From Terriglobales bacterium (GTDB taxonomy: Bacteria > Acidobacteriota > Terriglobia > Terriglobales > Acidobacteriaceae): a DNA stretch of 64,000 bases. Below the pieces are notes generated by a model, which was given only the letters and a program-made list of their open reading frames with translations, ran no database searches and was not told the DNA's origin. Location: assembly GCA_036392935.1 (NCBI GenBank), contig DASVWZ010000156.1:1433-65432 (forward strand), in the 5' to 3' direction. Below are positions 53,777 through 59,194 of the stretch, piece after piece; positions within the stretch are counted from its first letter, which is position 1, and each line of letters starts with the position of its first letter. The translations under genes were made by a program, and so were the position numbers.

Positions 53777-53793
53777 CCGCTTTTGCTTGTGTA

Positions 53794-53827
53794 GGGCGGA
53801 CACTCCTGTCCGCCCCTCTTTTGTTTT
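53794..53827 (+). terminator. rho-independent terminator of rne
   Basis: GGGCGGACA-CTCC-TGTCCGCCC followed by CTCTTTTGTTTT, 18 nt after the stop codon. Confidence 0.75.
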
Positions 53828-53885
53828 CACTTCCGCATGCTGACTTCTTACTTCTGCACTGCGGCCGGATTTTGCTCTTGGGTGG

Positions 53886-53945
53886 CGCAGCGCTTCAGCG
53901 CTGCGATTCGAACCCGGATAAGCGACGGCTTTAGCCGCTGAGGTA
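53886..53945 (+). repeat. two-hairpin REP-like element (divergent member)
   Basis: GCAGCGC-TTCA-GCGCTGC, then a spacer, then GACGGC-TTTA-GCCGCT. Same architecture as the elements at 57649 and 59113. Confidence 0.55.
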
Positions 53946-53980
53946 AGAAGCGCTGTCGCGTTCTTTGCGATTGAGTGGAA

Positions 53981-54016
53981 AAAGAAAAGATTGGGGCGGA
54001 CACTCCTGTCCGCCCC
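53981..54016 (-). terminator. second copy of the same hairpin, oriented as terminator of the 54036..54311 gene
   Basis: GGGGCGGACACTCCTGTCCGCCCC at 53993..54016. On the minus strand it is followed by TCTTTTCTTTTT. Confidence 0.6.
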
Positions 54017-54035
54017 TTTCTTGCATTCTGACTGC

Positions 54036-54311
54036 TTACTTCTGCACTGCCGCCTGACTCTTCGCCCAGATCGACGCGTTCAAACACTCCACCGTCCCAT
54101 CCACCACCTTGCCCAACCCTTCTTTGAACTTCGCTTCATCCACCACATCTTTCGCCAGCACCGCATCGCTCAGCGACAGCGCCGTCTGCAGAAACGACAT
54201 CACCGCATCCTTCTTCTGCGCCCCCGTGTTTCTGTTAAACAACCCCTCAATGCCATTCACAATCGTCGGCACAAACCCCATGATCTGCAACAACCTCGTC
54301 ACAAACACCAT
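54036..54311 (-). CDS. small protein, N-terminal hydrophobic helix; tentatively LL-H-type phage holin-like
   Basis: MVFVTRLLQIMGFVPTIVNGIEGLF...GAQKKDAVMSFLQTAL...VVDEAKFKEGLGKVVDGTVECLNAS (91 aa). AAGGAG lies 9 nt upstream of the ATG at 54311. The family call is from remembered pattern only. Confidence 0.45.
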   Translation of the reverse strand: MVFVTRLLQIMGFVPTIVNGIEGLFNRNTGAQKKDAVMSFLQTALSLSDAVLAKDVVDEAKFKEGLGKVVDGTVECLNASIWAKSQAAVQK

Positions 54312-54453
54312 CTCATCTCTCCTTTTCTGATTTGACTTCTGCCTTCTCACTTCTAACTTCCGCCTTGCCACTTCCCATTCCTGCACACCCAAACATCGCG
54401 CCCGTGATCTACGTCACAGCCAGGCGACGAGACGAACCCGCACCATAACTCCG

Positions 54454-54819
54454 GTGAACCAAAAGACCGACCTCGACCTCAGATCCCGAACAAAGACATT
54501 CGCCCTGAGCACTCTCTGTCTCTGTCGTGATCTGCCCGCAAAAGACGAAGCCCGCACCATCGGTCGGCAACTGCTGCGCTCTTCCACTTCAGTTGGCGCC
54601 AACTACCGGGCGGCTTGCCGCGCTCGAACCAAGACCGAATTCATCGCCAAGCTCGGTATCGTCCTCGAGGAAGCTGACGAGTCTGCATTCTGGCTCGAAC
54701 TTCTTTCCGAGGGCGGCATCGCGAACTCCGATAACGTAAAAGCTTTGCTCGGCGAGGCCAACCAACTGATCTCTATCTTCGTGACCTCCATCCGAACAGC
54801 CAAGGGAATGCAAGAGTGA
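54454..54819 (+). CDS. four-helix-bundle protein (TIGR02436 / 23S rRNA intervening-sequence protein family)
   Basis: TIGRQLLRSSTSVGANYRAACRARTKTEFIAKLGIVLEEADESAFWLELL is the hallmark of this family. GTG start. Lies on the opposite strand to its neighbours. Confidence 0.8.
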   Translation: MNQKTDLDLRSRTKTFALSTLCLCRDLPAKDEARTIGRQLLRSSTSVGANYRAACRARTKTEFIAKLGIVLEEADESAFWLELLSEGGIANSDNVKALLGEANQLISIFVTSIRTAKGMQE

Positions 54820-54840
54820 CAAGTTAGAGAGCCCCGCCTT

Positions 54841-54967
54841 GTTCCTAACCTCTGCCCTCTGCCCTCTCACTTCTAACTTCTGCCTTCGTTCCTGACTTCT
54901 GCCTTCTCACTTCTAACTTCTGCCTTTGTTCCTGACTTCTGCCTTCTCACTTCTAACTTCTGCCTTC
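54841..54967. repeat. three tandem copies of a ~40-nt unit made of NNAGAAG-type heptamers
   Basis: The unit GTTCCTGACTTCTGCCTTCTCACTTCTAACTTCTGCCTT(T/C) occurs at 54888..54927 and 54928..54967. A 47-nt variant lies at 54841..54887, and a further partial copy at 54333..54366. Confidence 0.85.
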
Positions 54968-54969
54968 CC

Positions 54970-55272
54970 CTACTTCCACCACCTGTCTTTCGTCGTAAAC
55001 ACCGCGCTGATCACGAATGCGATCGCCGCATTCAGCAGCCGGTCATACACGCTGCGCCGCACATCGTTTTTCTCGAGCACCATGATCCGGTCTTCCATAA
55101 TCTTCACCAGCCCCGGCTGCTGTCCTCCCGCCAGCATGTCCATCTTGGCTTCGAGGCGCGCCAGTTTTTCCAGCACCTCGTGCTCAAATACTTCGCTCTC
55201 CACCCGCACCACCAGCGGCTTTCCCGCCATCGACCCGGCCGCCAGATTTCTCAAAACATCGTCTTGGCTCAT
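54970..55272 (-). CDS. small coiled-coil protein with C-terminal TM helix (XhlA-like architecture)
   Basis: MSQDDVLRNL...FEHEVLEKLARLEAKMDMLAGG...RLLNAAIAFVISAVFTTKDRWWK (100 aa). Its ATG overlaps the upstream stop as ATGA (55269..55272). Confidence 0.55.
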   Translation of the reverse strand: MSQDDVLRNLAAGSMAGKPLVVRVESEVFEHEVLEKLARLEAKMDMLAGGQQPGLVKIMEDRIMVLEKNDVRRSVYDRLLNAAIAFVISAVFTTKDRWWK

Positions 55273-57602
55273 AATGGATAGTCCACGTGTAACGCCGCCG
55301 AATACCGCGAATACTTCGCCGGCGTCGAATTGTCGTATTGCTGCAGATAGCAATCCTGTATCTGCGACAGCCGCGGAATCGTGAACGTCTGCGTCGTAAA
55401 CCGCCCGATCAGGTTCTGATTATTTCCCGCGCCCCACCCCTCATCGCTCCATCTCACTTCAATTCCTCCTCCTGCCGGCGGCGCATTCCCGGCATCGATG
55501 CTCATGGTCGTCGATGTCGCCTCCGTGATCTGCGCCGCCGTCAAATCCGCAATGTACGAACTCCCAATCTCCGAGTTCGCAAACTGCGTCACATCCACCG
55601 GCATCGAAACCTTAGCTGCCTCAAACTCGAAGCCCAGCGCCGGATTCGCCGCCTGCCCAAACGCAATCTGATACATGCTGTTTTCTCCCGCCAGGTCCTG
55701 CACCTCGATCTGCACCTCTTTCACAATCGCCGAAAACGAAGCGCCGCATCCCGCCACGCCCACATTCAACCCATCGCCCGGAAAAATATCCGCTGCTCCG
55801 CCCGGCAGGTAGTTGCTCCACGTTGTGTACTCTCCGCTCCACGCCGCATTCGCCGCATCGTCCAGAATCGCCAGTGCCGCGTTCTCGCAATCCGCCGCCG
55901 TCCGCGCCAGCGGCAGTTTCACGTGCCGTACGGCTGCCCGCCCGCCATCGTCGATCCCGTACCGTTGCTCCGCGATGCTCGCCGGATTTGTGACCCATGC
56001 CACTGCCCGCCCCCGCCCGCGGTAATGCACTTCAATCTGCTCGTCGGCCGCCGGAACATACTCCGTATAAAACTCCAGCGTGTCGCTCGACGTGATCGTG
56101 CACTGCGCGCCATCCTTCAAATCGCCCGCCAGCAGCGTGCTGAACGCCTGCCCCGGCAGCGCGCCACGCACGCACGCGTTCGGCACATCCAGAATCCGCG
56201 TGAATGCCACCGTGCACTCCAGGTTCGCCGCATTGATCAGGGCGTACGTGCAGAATCCCGGCGGCGCCGTCATCAGGTTGTCATACAGGACCGTCGATGG
56301 AGCCACTTCTGTCGCCGGGTTCAGCGGATCGATGTCATGCACCTCCAGCACCACCTGGACCTGCGCCGGAATCGCCGCTCCGCCATACCCCGCGCCCGCC
56401 GGATGGTCCGCCGAATGGAACGTCTGCTCTTGCCGGAAAATCTCCTGCGAATACAGCCGCGTCGTCATCACGTAGTGATGTCCGCTCGCCGTCGTCATTA
56501 CCACTCCCGTCGCTACCCCGTTGATCACCGCCTGAATATTCGACTGGCTCCCGTTCGGCGTAATCAGGAATCCCGCCAGACATCCCCCAATCGACACCGC
56601 TCCCGGATACAATCCTCCAATCACCGCGCTCGACGCTGCGCTGAACTGCACATCCCCATGCTGAATCACCACTGCCCCGCCCAGTTGCACCTGCTCCACC
56701 AGCTGCACCGTAGTGGCTCCATCCACTCCCGTTCCGCCCGCAATATGCAGCTTCGCCGCCTGGATCGACACTGCGCTCGCCGGGTCCGTTACCGTCCAAA
56801 GCGCCGGGCTGAGCGCCGTCTCCGTGTACTCTTCATCCAGAATGATTTCGCTGGTCTTCTGAAACGGCGTCTGCGAGAGATAAAACTTGTACGTCAACCC
56901 ATCGCCAACGAAATAATCCTTCACATACGGCTGCGGCTCCATGTCTCCGATCACCGTCACGTTGTTGGCTACATCGTTCGCGACCGCCAGCTTCAACCCT
57001 TGCGGCACGAAGGTCGGGTCCGCATCACCCAGCGCGTATGCGCTCGCGCCCAGTGGAGCAAAACTCAACGAGCCGTTCTGCAGCCGGTAGCATGCCCGCG
57101 CCTGCGCCGCCAGTTCTGCCGCGTGTTGCGACCACGTCTTCTGCGGATCGGCTGCATACCCCGCCACATAATCCAGGCTTTGCACCGCGCTCACGTCAAT
57201 CGACGCGCCCATCAAATCCTGCGTCAGTTGCCGCAACGCCGCGCCCGCTGTCCGCTCCACAAACGGCACCACCACCGGTACCTGTTTCAGGTCGAGCAGC
57301 GCTTCATCGCCCTCCGCCACCACGTCATACCGGTACAGCGGTCCCTGCTCGCCGCGTCCCAAATATTCGAACGCCGGCGCCTGCGTCAGATATCCCGTAA
57401 ACACCAGTTGCCCGCCCGCCAGCGTCAGCACGACGCGCGCCCCCGCCACCGGAACCACGAATCCCGCCCCGCCCACCAAACTTGCCGACATCTCCGCCGG
57501 CTGATTCAGCTTCCTGACCACCTTCGGCAGTCGTTCCGCAGCGATTGCCGACGTATAATCCCGCAGCCCCGCCCCATTCAAATTGTCTATTTGCAATGTC
57601 AT
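55269..57602 (-). CDS. large beta-rich protein with phage tail-tip/baseplate-hub-like N-terminus
   Basis: 777 aa. N-terminal ~220 aa (QLVFTGYLTQAPAFEYLGRGEQGPLYRYDVVAEGDEALLDLK...TWSQHAAELAAQARACYRLQNGSLSFAPLG) follows the gp27/gpD/Tal-type hub pattern as I recall it. The remainder is Gly/Ala/Val/Thr-rich beta-type sequence. The equally long + strand ORF is Arg-rich nonsense. Confidence 0.6.
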   Translation of the reverse strand: MTLQIDNLNGAGLRDYTSAIAAERLPKVVRKLNQPAEMSASLVGGAGFVVPVAGARVVLTLAGGQLVFTGYLTQAPAFEYLGRGEQGPLYRYDVVAEGDEALLDLKQVPVVVPFVERTAGAALRQLTQDLMGASIDVSAVQSLDYVAGYAADPQKTWSQHAAELAAQARACYRLQNGSLSFAPLGASAYALGDADPTFVPQGLKLAVANDVANNVTVIGDMEPQPYVKDYFVGDGLTYKFYLSQTPFQKTSEIILDEEYTETALSPALWTVTDPASAVSIQAAKLHIAGGTGVDGATTVQLVEQVQLGGAVVIQHGDVQFSAASSAVIGGLYPGAVSIGGCLAGFLITPNGSQSNIQAVINGVATGVVMTTASGHHYVMTTRLYSQEIFRQEQTFHSADHPAGAGYGGAAIPAQVQVVLEVHDIDPLNPATEVAPSTVLYDNLMTAPPGFCTYALINAANLECTVAFTRILDVPNACVRGALPGQAFSTLLAGDLKDGAQCTITSSDTLEFYTEYVPAADEQIEVHYRGRGRAVAWVTNPASIAEQRYGIDDGGRAAVRHVKLPLARTAADCENAALAILDDAANAAWSGEYTTWSNYLPGGAADIFPGDGLNVGVAGCGASFSAIVKEVQIEVQDLAGENSMYQIAFGQAANPALGFEFEAAKVSMPVDVTQFANSEIGSSYIADLTAAQITEATSTTMSIDAGNAPPAGGGIEVRWSDEGWGAGNNQNLIGRFTTQTFTIPRLSQIQDCYLQQYDNSTPAKYSRYSAALHVDYPL

Positions 57603-57648
57603 ATATGTGTCTCTGTCTAGTTCGCCAAACCGGAAACTGTTCGGGAGG

Positions 57649-57730
57649 GCACGGCTTCAGCCGTGCCGCCCAATGCACCCTAACCCATGTCATTCCGAAC
57701 GGCTCTAGCCGTGAGGAATCTGCTGTTTGC
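57649..57730 (+). repeat. two-hairpin REP-like element, copy A
   Basis: GCACGGC-TTCA-GCCGTGC ... CATTCCGAACGGCTCTAGCCGTGAGGAATCTGCTG. Roughly 85 percent identical, by eye, to copy B at 59113. Confidence 0.7.
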
Positions 57731-57790
57731 TTTCAGTTCTGCATTCCGACTTCCTGGCCACTTCTGCCTTCTACCTTCTGACTTCTGCAT

Positions 57791-58384
57791 TCATTTCACC
57801 CCGCACACCCCCACAGCCCCGTCCAGCCCAGCATCCCCGCTCGCCCCGCAGATCTGCTCGTTCCACTGCTTCTTCAATTCCGCCGCTCGGGGCAGCGCAG
57901 TCTTCTGCGCGCTCACCTGCGCAGCAGCCGCTCCGGAACTCTGCGGAATCAGCTGCGCAAAGCTGTCTACTGTGGTCACAATCAGATTGACTGCTGCCGC
58001 AATCCTCGCCGACAAAGCCGCATTCTCAATGTGTGCCGCCTGTAGCAGCGCCGGCAGATTCTGATTGATGTCCGCAATCGCCGCCTGTATCTGTTCCAGC
58101 AGCGTCGCGCTCGGCGCAGCTTTGTACTGGTTGTAAAGTGACGCCAGCAGATTCAGATCCGCGCTCGCCTGCGCCGAAATCTTCTGAATCGCCGCCGCAT
58201 CCGCCGCGCTGATCTGCTGCCCTGACTCGAGCGTGCTTACCACCGTCCCAATGTTCAGCGCCATCTGTGTCAGCACCGGCAAATCCGCCAGCGCCACGCT
58301 GATCCACTCCGCGCTGCAGCCCGTCGCGGCCAGCGCCACCGCCAAAACCACCACCAACCCCACCTTCGCTCCATTCACTTTCAT
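57791..58384 (-). CDS. all-helical lipoprotein, unknown function
   Basis: Signal peptide with lipobox: MKVNGAKVGLVVVLAVALAATGC. The rest is Ala/Leu/Gln-rich and predicted helical. C-terminus: CGASGDAGLDGAVGVCGVK. Confidence 0.6.
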   Translation of the reverse strand: MKVNGAKVGLVVVLAVALAATGCSAEWISVALADLPVLTQMALNIGTVVSTLESGQQISAADAAAIQKISAQASADLNLLASLYNQYKAAPSATLLEQIQAAIADINQNLPALLQAAHIENAALSARIAAAVNLIVTTVDSFAQLIPQSSGAAAAQVSAQKTALPRAAELKKQWNEQICGASGDAGLDGAVGVCGVK

Positions 58385-59112: not shown

Positions 59113-59194
59113 GCACGGCCTCAGCCGTGCCGCCATCACACCCTATCCATTGTCATTCCGAACGCTTTAGCCGTTAGGAATCTGCTGTTCTTGC
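59113..59194 (+). repeat. two-hairpin REP-like element, copy B
   Basis: GCACGGC-CTCA-GCCGTGC ... CATTCCGAACGCTTTAGCCGTTAGGAATCTGCTG. Same orientation as copy A. Confidence 0.7.

What the first reader, a model, noticed from the sequence alone, without database searches (positions are those of the whole stretch)
54036..58384. Orphan phage-tail-tip-like gene with lysis-like small membrane proteins and a lipoprotein, wedged between rne and gatCA
Seen in sequence, the minus-strand series is:
- a lipoprotein (57791..58384);
- a 777-aa beta-rich protein (55269..57602);
- a 100-aa coiled-coil protein with a C-terminal TM helix, coupled by an ATGA overlap (54970..55272);
- a 91-aa protein with an N-terminal hydrophobic helix (54036..54311).
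The series is interrupted by an antisense four-helix-bundle gene and surrounded by the densest repeat clusters in the window. There is no capsid, portal, terminase, sheath, tube, integrase or endolysin gene, and both flanks are core housekeeping genes.
From remembered patterns only: the 777-aa N-terminus looks like a gp27/gpD/Tal-type tail hub, the 100-aa protein has XhlA-like architecture, and the 91-aa protein resembles LL-H-family holins (G..KK.A...FL......V.DE..F......VD..V..LN).
Inference: this is either a heavily eroded prophage tail/lysis remnant or a domesticated minimal module, for example a surface-exposed tail-tip-like adhesin or toxin with its own membrane-release proteins. I cannot match the combination to a described system.
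Basis: partly seen in the sequence, partly recalled or inferred. Interest (0 to 1): 0.65.

Follow-up and report, generated by a model that had tools for sequence, protein, structure and literature searches.

The report
Orphaned phage tail-tip gene remnant
The three genes are the leftover tail-tip end of a phage-derived particle gene cluster found in most relatives of this soil acidobacterium; this genome has lost the head genes, so the set is a stranded remnant, not a new system.

Summary
All ORFs exist as described. A confident AlphaFold model of the 777-aa protein (pLDDT 90.5) has a Mu gp44 / T4 gp27 / VgrG / siphophage Tal hub fold at its N-terminus plus a lectin-like domain.

The set is not a free-standing module. 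In relatives, p777, p100 and p91 are the last three genes of one colinear cluster: TerL, HipA-like, DUF3037, portal, capsid-like, adaptor, f7, f9, f10, p777, p100, p91. p777 occurs in 215 of 282 high-quality genomes of the family and the portal in 200 of 282. The cluster usually abuts a 2-oxoacid dehydrogenase operon and co-diverges with it.

This genome has no terminase, portal or capsid gene. f9' and f10 sit at a contig end elsewhere, and the trio lies at a synteny breakpoint between rne and gatCA.

The lipoprotein is a native neighbour of FmdE-gatCA. The four-helix-bundle gene is a lineage-specific insertion. Neither belongs to the module. The holin and XhlA assignments got no profile support; p91 matches PHROG 36560, of unknown function.

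The trio is intact (dN/dS 0.17 for p777), with hints of relaxed selection. The family-wide cluster is a candidate gene-transfer-agent-like element. The scan noted similar clusters in other phyla, not here.

The parts
55269..57602 (-). p777: tail-tip hub (Tal / baseplate-hub type) protein with an N-terminal gp27/gp44-like hub and a ConA-like lectin domain. Intact, single copy.
   Evidence: AF2 pLDDT 90.5, pTM 0.86. Foldseek PDB: Mu gp44 1wru E 5e-9, MuSo2 3cdd, VgrG, T4 gp27, T5 pb3, lambda J, 80alpha baseplate. BFVD: full-length sipho/myovirus tail proteins to E 1e-22. 28% identical over 84% of its length to gp15 of Tunturiibacter phage Tunturi_4, which lies just after the tape measure. More than 1000 homologues of 777-782 aa.
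54970..55272 (-). p100: conserved small protein coupled to p777 by a 4-nt ATGA overlap. It has a coiled coil, a QPGR motif and a C-terminal moderately hydrophobic helix. Function unknown.
   Evidence: Alignment A5 of 31 orthologues, 64% mean column identity. The same 4-nt overlap occurs in L032. No Pfam or PHROG family. KD(19) maximum 1.46 at residues 75-93. The window copy has L where 90% or more of orthologues have R55.
54036..54311 (-). p91: conserved small protein of phage family PHROG 36560 (function unknown), with an N-terminal moderately hydrophobic helix. The last ~8 codons are replaced by local repeat sequence.
   Evidence: Alignment A4. 28 of 29 orthologues hit phrog_36560, best E 4e-6. 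No holin profile. DNA homology to L032 stops at 54060. Repeat D3 at 54023-54057 is 89% identical to 53835-53869.
54312..54969 (.). Lineage-specific insertion between p100 and p91: heptamer arrays flanking an antisense PF05635 four-helix-bundle gene (54454-54819, + strand). Not part of the ancestral module.
   Evidence: The p100-p91 spacer is about 60 bp in the nearest relatives L032 and L033 but 658 bp here. PF05635 E 3e-15. Repeats D1 and D2.
57603..57790 (.). Upstream breakpoint spacer: a REP-like two-hairpin element plus a heptamer array. Homology to the ancestral cluster starts exactly at the p777 start codon.
   Evidence: blastn to L032 and L033 starts at 57602. REP copy at 57649-57727 matches 59113-59189. 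A 23-nt identical REP hairpin also lies in the f10-p777 spacer of G003. No sigma-70-like promoter was found on the minus strand.
53777..54035 (.). Downstream breakpoint spacer between rne and p91: a duplicated terminator hairpin plus heptamer tail, 200 nt apart, 89% identical.
   Evidence: Repeats D3 and D10, inverted repeat I1. Terminator-like hairpins on both strands at 53993-54016 and 53794-53815.
57791..58384 (-). 197-aa signal-peptide / probable lipoprotein gene: a native neighbour of FmdE-gatA-gatC-cca, not part of the phage-derived module.
   Evidence: The divergent lipoprotein-FmdE pair next to gatA, gatC and cca is conserved in all four other genomes of the genus, far from their phage-like cluster. 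Distant homologues do follow p777 in two other genera (L020, L023), so a loose association cannot be fully excluded.

Best explanation
p777-p100-p91 is the tail-distal end of an ancient phage-derived head-tail gene cluster. The ancestral cluster runs TerL, HipA-like kinase, DUF3037, portal, two small proteins, capsid-like f3c, head-tail adaptor f6, f7, f9, tube/Dit-like f10, p777, p100, p91. It is inherited vertically in most members of this Terriglobales family.

In the intact cluster, p777 would form the hub that closes the tail tip and, through its lectin-like domain, contacts the target cell surface (inferred from fold, by analogy with trimeric hubs). p100 and p91 are conserved accessory proteins. 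They may be membrane-active and involved in release or tail assembly, but this is weakly supported.

In this genome a deletion removed everything from inside the upstream giant secreted fibre-like gene to the middle of f9. That removed terminase, portal and capsid. The trio now sits apart from f9'-f10, at a repeat-rich synteny breakpoint between rne and the lipoprotein-FmdE-gatCA block, and a four-helix-bundle gene has been inserted between p100 and p91. Without head and packaging genes the trio cannot build a particle. It is most likely a still-intact remnant in early decay.
For: Fold: high-confidence model and hub-fold matches. A homologue sits in the tail-tip position of an isolated acidobacterial siphophage.

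Cluster membership: colinear cluster in 15 same-family genomes and about 75 of the 80 species loci fetched. Portal is PF04860 at 1e-46, TerL is phrog_2 at 2.5e-27 and the adaptor is phrog_442.

Distribution: p777 in 215/282 genomes, portal in 200/282, and 0/18 in the sister family.

Co-divergence with the adjacent core gene E1b: Spearman 0.56-0.74, Mantel p 0.001, 42 loci.

Loss in this genome: no TerL, HipA, DUF3037, portal, f3a-c, f6 or f7. A 1259-aa ORF on C292 fuses the giant protein's N-part to f9 residues 70-197 and is followed by f10 at the contig end.

Relocation: rne (3.58 Mb), gatCA (4.21 Mb) and the cluster (5.02 Mb) are separate loci in the complete genome G003. Contigs C84 and C170 of this assembly run through the ancestral neighbour positions without the trio.

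Selection: dN/dS versus the nearest relatives is 0.17 for p777, 0.14-0.26 for p91 and 0.47-0.63 for p100. Between those relatives the values are 0.10, 0.05 and 0.41. The nonsynonymous branch to this genome is about 1.5-1.9 times the sister path.

Other head-less genomes mostly carry truncated or fused p777.
Against: - All three genes are intact, and every invariant column of p777 is kept. Ongoing function cannot be excluded.
- The assembly is a 331-contig MAG. Absence of head genes rests on an assembly 97.7% complete.
- dS to outgroups is saturated, so relaxation on this branch is suggestive only.
- The roles of p100 and p91 are inferred from architecture alone.
Confidence: 0.75

Rival explanations
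1. Domesticated minimal module. After head loss, p777 with p100 and p91 is kept by selection in this genome as a cell-surface or released tail-tip-like adhesin or toxin, with its own membrane-release proteins.
For: The three genes are intact, with dN/dS well below 1. Head-less genomes with full-length p777, p100 and p91 exist in other genera (L127, L080, L092). Most deletion junctions are in-frame fusions to a signal-peptide N-terminus.
Against: Pairwise dN/dS mostly measures the time before head loss. Most head-less genomes keep only fragments of p777 (E about 1e-30 to 1e-68 partial matches; L126 is frameshifted). p777 has no signal peptide. The trio has been cut off from its operon and no promoter-like site was found upstream (weak evidence). 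p100 has lost a nearly invariant Arg.
Confidence: 0.1
2. Assembly artefact. Contig C156 is chimeric at the REP and heptamer repeats. In the real chromosome p777 follows f10, as in locus L092, and the rne / gatCA neighbourhood is not real.
For: f10 ends 11 bp before the end of contig C292. Both junctions of the trio lie in repeat-rich spacers. L092 shows a contiguous giant::f9'-f10-p777 arrangement. A REP hairpin lies in the same spacer in G003.
Against: The repeats are short (under 90 nt) and only 85-90% identical, so exact runs are below usual assembly k-mers. The rne-side junction carries two diverged copies of the same 60-nt element with unique sequence between them, and one copy forms the last codons of p91. 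That is hard to produce by mis-joining. Two independent chimeric joins would be needed. Contigs C84 and C170 independently show that this genome's synteny differs from G003 at the ancestral positions. No contig end overlaps the end of C292.
Confidence: 0.13
3. Remnant of a recent, strain-specific prophage infection unrelated to host history.
For: Phage-type fold. IMG/VR contigs and one isolated phage carry relatives.
Against: Orthologues occur in 43 of 60 genera, as a single copy in most genomes searched, in the same gene order and mostly at the same chromosomal site, and they co-diverge with a core gene. No integrase or replication genes flank the cluster in G003.
Confidence: 0.02

Closest known systems
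Tail-tip hub proteins of long-tailed phages and related injection systems (Mu gp44, T4 gp27, siphophage Tal such as the 80alpha hub, T5 pb3, lambda gpJ, T6SS VgrG)
   Same: The N-terminal ~240 residues adopt the same hub fold (Foldseek probability 1.0, E 5e-9 to 1e-4). Full-length matches are to phage 'tail protein' and 'minor tail protein' models. p777 is the last large structural gene of a tail module.
   Different: No sequence-level match to any Pfam, PHROG or PDB entry. A ConA-like lectin domain follows the hub. No tape-measure gene precedes it in the ancestral cluster.
gp15 'virion structural protein' of Tunturiibacter phage Tunturi_4 (PP885687; Demina et al. 2025, PMC11924767)
   Same: The only match among 50,697 phage records: 28% identity over 84% of p777. 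The host belongs to Acidobacteriaceae. The gene lies just after the tape measure, the position expected of a tail-tip hub.
   Different: gp15 is 1319 aa and belongs to an 88-kb lytic siphophage with a 204-nm tail. p777 is 777 aa and belongs to a cluster of about 14 kb without a tape measure.
RcGTA-type gene transfer agents of Alphaproteobacteria
   Same: For the ancestral cluster, not this window: a compact head-tail cluster with terminase, portal, capsid, adaptor and hub. No integrase or replication genes were seen nearby. It is clade-wide, syntenic, co-diverges with the host and is under purifying selection.
   Different: No sequence relationship was shown. There is no tape measure. A HipA-like kinase and DUF3037 lie between terminase and portal. 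DNA packaging and transfer are untested. This genome lacks the head genes altogether.
PBSX XhlA-XhlB-XlyA lysis cassette of Bacillus subtilis
   Same: Two small proteins follow the tail genes. p100 has a coiled coil plus a C-terminal hydrophobic helix, like XhlA (sequence inspection).
   Different: No profile match to XhlA or any holin family. No endolysin gene is adjacent. Hydrophobicity is borderline for a transmembrane helix.
'Group (ii)' Terriglobales proviruses (Demina et al. 2025, PMC11924767) and acidobacterial prophage clusters (Eichorst et al. 2018, PMC5900883)
   Same: The papers describe provirus-like regions with shared gene order across SbA1, Koribacteraceae and Acidobacteriaceae genomes from distant sites. 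These are probably the same or an overlapping element.
   Different: Identity with the cluster described here was not checked, because the figures are not held. The papers treat them as proviruses, not as vertically inherited domesticated elements.

Membership tests
Phage tail-tip hub (gp27 / Mu gp44 / Tal / VgrG superfamily) | gp27-like hub fold in the N-terminal region | tested here: met
   AF2 pLDDT 90.5. 1wru E 5e-9, TM-score on target 0.45. 3cdd, 2p5z, 1k28, 6v8i, 7zhj and 8k35 all at probability 0.94-1.0.
Phage tail-tip hub (gp27 / Mu gp44 / Tal / VgrG superfamily) | Encoded at the distal end of a tail module, after the tube / tape measure / Dit genes | tested here: inconclusive
   In relatives p777 follows f10. 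The f10 model is low-confidence (pLDDT 57.9) and best matches siphophage tail-tube proteins (9n71 E 1e-6, 6xgr E 2e-4). No tape measure is present. In phage Tunturi_4 the homologue follows the tape measure. In this window the upstream tail genes are absent.
Phage tail-tip hub (gp27 / Mu gp44 / Tal / VgrG superfamily) | Trimer that plugs the tail tube in a particle | not testable with these tools
   Needs a multimer model or cryo-EM of particles from a relative with the intact cluster.
Gene transfer agent (functional class) | Head-tail structural cluster without replication, integration or lysogeny genes | tested here: inconclusive
   In G003 no integrase or replication gene lies within about 7 kb upstream or in the downstream E2 operon. 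An S24-peptidase (LexA/CI-like) gene lies 2.3 kb upstream of the giant gene. Only one genome was checked in this detail.
Gene transfer agent (functional class) | Clade-wide vertical inheritance under purifying selection | tested here: met
   p777 in 215/282 and portal in 200/282 genomes, 41-43 of 60 genera. Same order and site in most of 80 loci. Mantel r 0.56-0.74 with E1b. dN/dS 0.05-0.41 between relatives.
Gene transfer agent (functional class) | Particles package random host DNA and transfer it | not testable with these tools
   Requires culture supernatant DNA sequencing and transfer assays.
Gene transfer agent (functional class) | The genome under study encodes capsid, portal and terminase | tested here: not met
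   No hit in the whole assembly. This genome cannot be filed as GTA-bearing.
LL-H-type holins (Pfam Phage_holin_6_1) for p91 | Match to the family profile | tested here: not met
   0 of 29 orthologues at E <= 0.05. One weak Holin_SPP1 hit at E 0.026. 28 of 29 hit phrog_36560, of unknown function.
LL-H-type holins (Pfam Phage_holin_6_1) for p91 | N-terminal transmembrane helix | tested here: inconclusive
   KD(19) maximum 1.47 at residues 1-19, below the usual ~1.6 cut-off.
XhlA (Pfam PF10779) for p100 | Match to the family profile | tested here: not met
   0 of 31 orthologues in Pfam and none in PHROGs.
XhlA (Pfam PF10779) for p100 | Coiled coil followed by a C-terminal membrane anchor | tested here: inconclusive
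   The conserved helical segment and C-terminal hydrophobic stretch are visible in A5. KD(19) maximum is only 1.46.
One four-gene module including the lipoprotein | Lipoprotein gene co-occurs with p777 across genomes | tested here: not met
   In the genus it is always paired with FmdE-gatA-gatC-cca, away from the cluster. It was absent from the 80 cluster loci. Distant homologues lie next to p777 in only 2 of the 15 same-family loci.

The most novel reading that the evidence does not exclude
The ancestral cluster of which this trio is the stump is a previously unrecognised family of gene-transfer-agent-like (or otherwise domesticated) phage particles in Acidobacteriaceae-type Terriglobales. 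It would have a stub tail capped by the p777 lectin-bearing hub and would have been kept by selection for the whole history of the family. Within that frame, the recurrent head-less derivatives, including this genome, may retain p777-p100-p91 for a secondary, particle-independent role.
Probability: 0.35. Interest if true: 0.75.

Novelty: new member of a known kind. Interest (0 to 1): 0.45.

Why it matters
For this window the result is mostly a clarification.

The wider value is the lead it gives. One compact terminase-to-tail-tip cluster is present in about three quarters of the genomes of a dominant soil bacterial family, at a fixed chromosomal site, and co-diverges with a neighbouring core gene. 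If that cluster makes particles, it would be a route of gene exchange, or a tailocin-like weapon, in Acidobacteriota, a phylum with almost no genetic tools and very little known phage biology. Cultured relatives with intact clusters would allow a direct test.

Tried and rejected
- Pfam, PHROGs and PDB sequence searches with p777 gave nothing. Only structure prediction resolved it.
- The search for related loci with the broad alignment A1 failed in genome contigs because no stretch was conserved enough. The narrower A2 worked.
- The AF2 model of f10 was low confidence (pLDDT 57.9). Its tail-tube matches are only a hint.
- tblastn of p91 and p100 against 50,697 phage records found no match.
- I looked for a contig whose end overlaps the end of C292, to join f10 to something. 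There was none.
- I tried to use the DUF3443 right-flank gene of the nearest relatives to locate an empty site in this genome. Only 45-52% identical possible paralogues turned up in mid-contig, which is uninformative.
- Branch-specific dN/dS failed because dS to outgroups is saturated.
- The sigma-70 promoter scan found nothing upstream of p777 or p91. This is weak evidence for an acidobacterium.
- An active prophage was considered and rejected.
- A podovirus nozzle (T7 gp12-like) identity for p777 was considered and rejected, because the fold matches are hub proteins.
Full report
OBSERVATION

- p777 at 55269-57602 (-)
- p100 at 54970-55272 (-), whose ATG overlaps the p777 stop
- p91 at 54036-54311 (-)
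- a 197-aa signal-peptide protein at 57791-58384 (-)
- an antisense ORF at 54454-54819 (+), which is a PF05635 23S-rRNA-IVS four-helix-bundle protein (E 3e-15)

The spacers are full of 7-nt-periodic arrays and REP-like hairpins. These belong to genome-wide families: about 240 REP cores and 23-31 heptamer arrays in the assembly.

Sequence searches with p777 found no Pfam, PHROG or PDB relative.

WHAT P777 IS

p777 has more than 1000 homologues, almost all 777-782 aa long, in Terriglobales genomes and soil metagenomes. There are 959 clusters at 50% identity, and some form the N-terminal part of proteins of 1200-3800 aa.

An AlphaFold2 model built on 37 sequences is confident (pLDDT 90.5, pTM 0.86). 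Foldseek against the PDB aligns about 240 columns with central hub proteins of tails and injection systems. The matches include:
- Mu gp44 (1wru, E 5e-9)
- the MuSo2 43-kDa tail protein
- VgrG spikes
- T4 gp27
- the T5 pb3 and DT57C tail tips
- lambda gpJ
- the 80alpha and Bxb1 tail tips

Lectin / ConA-like sandwiches also match, which indicates a carbohydrate-binding-type domain. Against predicted viral structures, the whole protein matches 'tail protein' and 'minor tail protein' models of sipho- and myoviruses down to E 1e-22.

The only hit among 50,697 phage records is gp15, annotated 'virion structural protein', of Tunturiibacter phage Tunturi_4. This is an isolated siphophage of an Acidobacteriaceae host. 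The match is 28% identity over 84% of p777, and gp15 lies just after the tape-measure gene (phage described in PMC11924767).

WHAT THE TRIO BELONGS TO

In 15 genomes of the same family, p777 is followed by p100 and/or p91 homologues in most, but never by rne or gatCA. Upstream lies a conserved, co-oriented series:
- large terminase (phrog_2, 2.5e-27)
- a HipA-like kinase
- DUF3037
- portal (PF04860, 1e-46)
- a 181-aa protein
- a 142-aa coiled-coil protein
- a 350-aa, very conserved capsid-like protein (no family match)
- a head-tail adaptor (phrog_442, 5.6e-10)
- a 139-aa protein (f7)
- a 197-aa protein (f9)
- a 344-aa protein (f10)
- then p777, p100 and p91

Further upstream are a 752-aa beta-helix / polysaccharide-deacetylase protein and a giant (2210-aa) signal-peptide protein with fibre-like repeats.

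The two nearest homologues of the window's p777 (76-77% identity) lie in the same cluster on metagenome contigs.

Among the 80 best of 326 species genomes that encode a relative, nearly every locus with enough flank shows the same order. A convergent 2-oxoacid dehydrogenase operon lies downstream in 66 of them.

In a sample of 282 high-quality genomes of the family, p777 occurs in 215 (43 of 60 genera across the 301 genomes of the order searched) and its portal orthologue in 200. Neither was found in 18 genomes of the sister family.

Pairwise distances of portal, capsid-like protein and p777 correlate with those of the neighbouring core gene E1b (Spearman 0.74, 0.56 and 0.72; Mantel p 0.001; 42 loci). 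The caveat is that E1b is physically linked to the cluster.

I found no integrase or replication gene within about 7 kb of the cluster in the complete genome G003. An S24-peptidase (LexA/CI-like) gene lies nearby.

This is the signature of an old, vertically inherited, phage-derived element. It could be a candidate gene-transfer-agent-like particle or a very old cryptic prophage under selection.

The low-confidence model of f10 (pLDDT 57.9) best matches siphophage tail-tube proteins. No tape-measure gene is present. If particles are made, the tail would be a stub capped by p777. That step is inference.

Two papers describe widely shared Terriglobales 'proviruses' with common gene order (PMC5900883, PMC11924767). 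These are probably this element, though I could not verify it. I found no paper that calls it a GTA.

WHAT HAPPENED IN THIS GENOME

The assembly has 331 contigs and is 97.7% complete. It has no homologue of TerL, HipA-like, DUF3037, portal, the three head proteins, the adaptor, f7 or the 752-aa protein.

On contig C292 a 1259-aa ORF joins the N-terminal parts of the giant protein (residues 24-260 and 1031-1420 of the G003 protein) to residues 70-197 of f9. It is followed by f10, which ends 11 bp before the contig end. A deletion therefore removed the head and packaging genes.

DNA homology between the window and the nearest intact cluster starts exactly at the p777 start codon (57602). It runs to the end of p100, skips 658 bp, and resumes for p91 until 54060. 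The skipped 658 bp are about 60 bp in relatives. Here they hold heptamer arrays and the antisense four-helix-bundle gene.

The last eight codons of p91 come from a copy of a repeat that also lies 200 nt away, downstream of rne.

The lipoprotein is not part of the module. In all four other genomes of the genus it forms a divergent pair with FmdE next to gatA-gatC-cca. In the complete genome G003, rne (3.58 Mb), gatCA (4.21 Mb) and the cluster (5.02 Mb) are far apart. The trio therefore sits at a synteny breakpoint.

Contigs C84 and C170 of this assembly pass through the positions that neighbour the lipoprotein and p91 in G003, and they do so without the trio. This argues for real rearrangement. 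The diverged tandem copies at the rne-side junction point the same way. I give a chimeric contig about 13%.

IS THE REMNANT STILL USED?

The three genes are intact. NG86 dN/dS values are as follows:

| Gene | Window vs nearest relatives | Between those relatives |
|---|---|---|
| p777 | 0.17 | 0.10 |
| p91 | 0.14-0.26 | 0.05 |
| p100 | 0.47-0.63 | 0.41 |

The nonsynonymous branch leading to this genome is 1.5-1.9 times the sister path. p100 has lost a nearly invariant Arg. These are hints of relaxation, not proof.

Other genomes that lost the head genes mostly hold only fragments of p777:
- C-terminal 225-300 residues fused to foreign N-termini in G019, G020 and G011
- a frameshifted copy in L126
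- several partial matches at E 1e-30 to 1e-68

A few keep full-length p777 with p100 and p91 (L127, L080, L092). I therefore favour 'recent remnant' (0.75) over 'retained minimal module' (0.10).

THE SMALL PROTEINS

Both are strongly conserved (A4 and A5).
- p91: orthologues match PHROG 36560, of unknown function, in 28 of 29 cases. None matches a holin profile convincingly.
- p100: matches nothing.

Neither has a relative in the phage record collection by tblastn. Their hydrophobic helices are borderline.

An XhlA/holin-like release role is compatible with their position after the tail genes and with the p100 architecture. It remains an untested inference, which I put at about one in three.

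VERDICT

- For this window the feature is a new member of a known kind, a decaying phage-derived tail remnant.
- The lead worth following is the family-wide cluster itself.
- Earlier notes of this scan describe similar GTA-like clusters in Clostridia and Opitutales. The look-ups made returned none for Acidobacteriota.

Noticed in passing
L013:1-12034 with L028:7484-19104 (G003); 80 loci L049-L128: A family-wide, colinear terminase-to-tail-tip cluster of about 14 kb, usually next to a 2-oxoacid dehydrogenase operon. It occurs in about 71-76% of 282 high-quality genomes of the family and co-diverges with the adjacent core gene. It is a candidate GTA-like element not described as such in the papers searched.
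   Followed up: partly
G000 contig C292:108516-112295; L092:2077-5316; L127:9134-9877; L080:3415-4149; L025:9622-10512; L026:9694-11196: Independent deletions that removed the head genes left in-frame fusions. The signal-peptide N-terminus of the upstream giant (or beta-helix) protein is joined to the C-terminal part of f9, the last ~10 residues of f10, or the C-terminal 225-260 residues of p777. About 5 of 6 events are in frame, against 1 in 3 expected by chance. The assignment of the L025 (G019) and L026 (G020) N-termini was made by eye.
   Followed up: partly
genus g33 genomes (e.g. G067:C1:4139335-4142909, G236:C5:128939-132546); IMG/VR loci L043, L044: A second conserved gene order. The portal is followed directly by p777, while the f7-f9-f10 block lies upstream, before the giant gene (seen in L044). 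p777 and the portal are each present in 50 of 55 genomes of that genus. The gene set evidently persists after rearrangement.
   Followed up: no
L028:16630-19104 and L013:646-1473: A HipA-like kinase (PF20613) and a DUF3037 protein are conserved between terminase and portal in nearly all loci. Both also match PHROGs of unknown function (phrog_3162, phrog_5137). A toxin-like kinase is an odd insert inside a head module.
   Followed up: no
G003:C1:5015245-5017578 (L013:8746-11082); G275:C8:161457-163820; L072:10001-12364: p777 carries a single in-frame stop in a few genomes whose cluster is otherwise intact: TAG in the complete genome G003, TGA in G275, and one stop in L072. This could be a pseudogene, a sequencing error or read-through.
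   Followed up: no
L028:4427-5161 (-): A 244-aa S24-peptidase (LexA/CI-like) gene lies about 2.3 kb upstream of the giant gene in G003. It could be an SOS-linked regulator of the element or simply the host LexA.
   Followed up: no
window 54023-54057 versus 53835-53869: The last eight codons of p91 (…SQAAVQK) are made from a copy of a repeat unit that also follows the rne terminator 200 nt away. Relatives end …WAKAQ.
   Followed up: partly
window 57649-57727 and 59113-59189; whole assembly: REP-like two-hairpin elements (about 240 cores genome-wide) and 7-nt-periodic CTTC arrays (23-31 arrays) occupy every spacer around the trio. An identical 23-nt REP hairpin lies in the f10-p777 spacer of G003.
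   Followed up: partly
f3c orthologues, e.g. L053:6169-7218: The 350-aa capsid-like protein is far more conserved than p777 (73-90% versus 52-64% identity to the respective query across the same loci), yet has no Pfam or PHROG match. Its fold was not predicted here.
   Followed up: no
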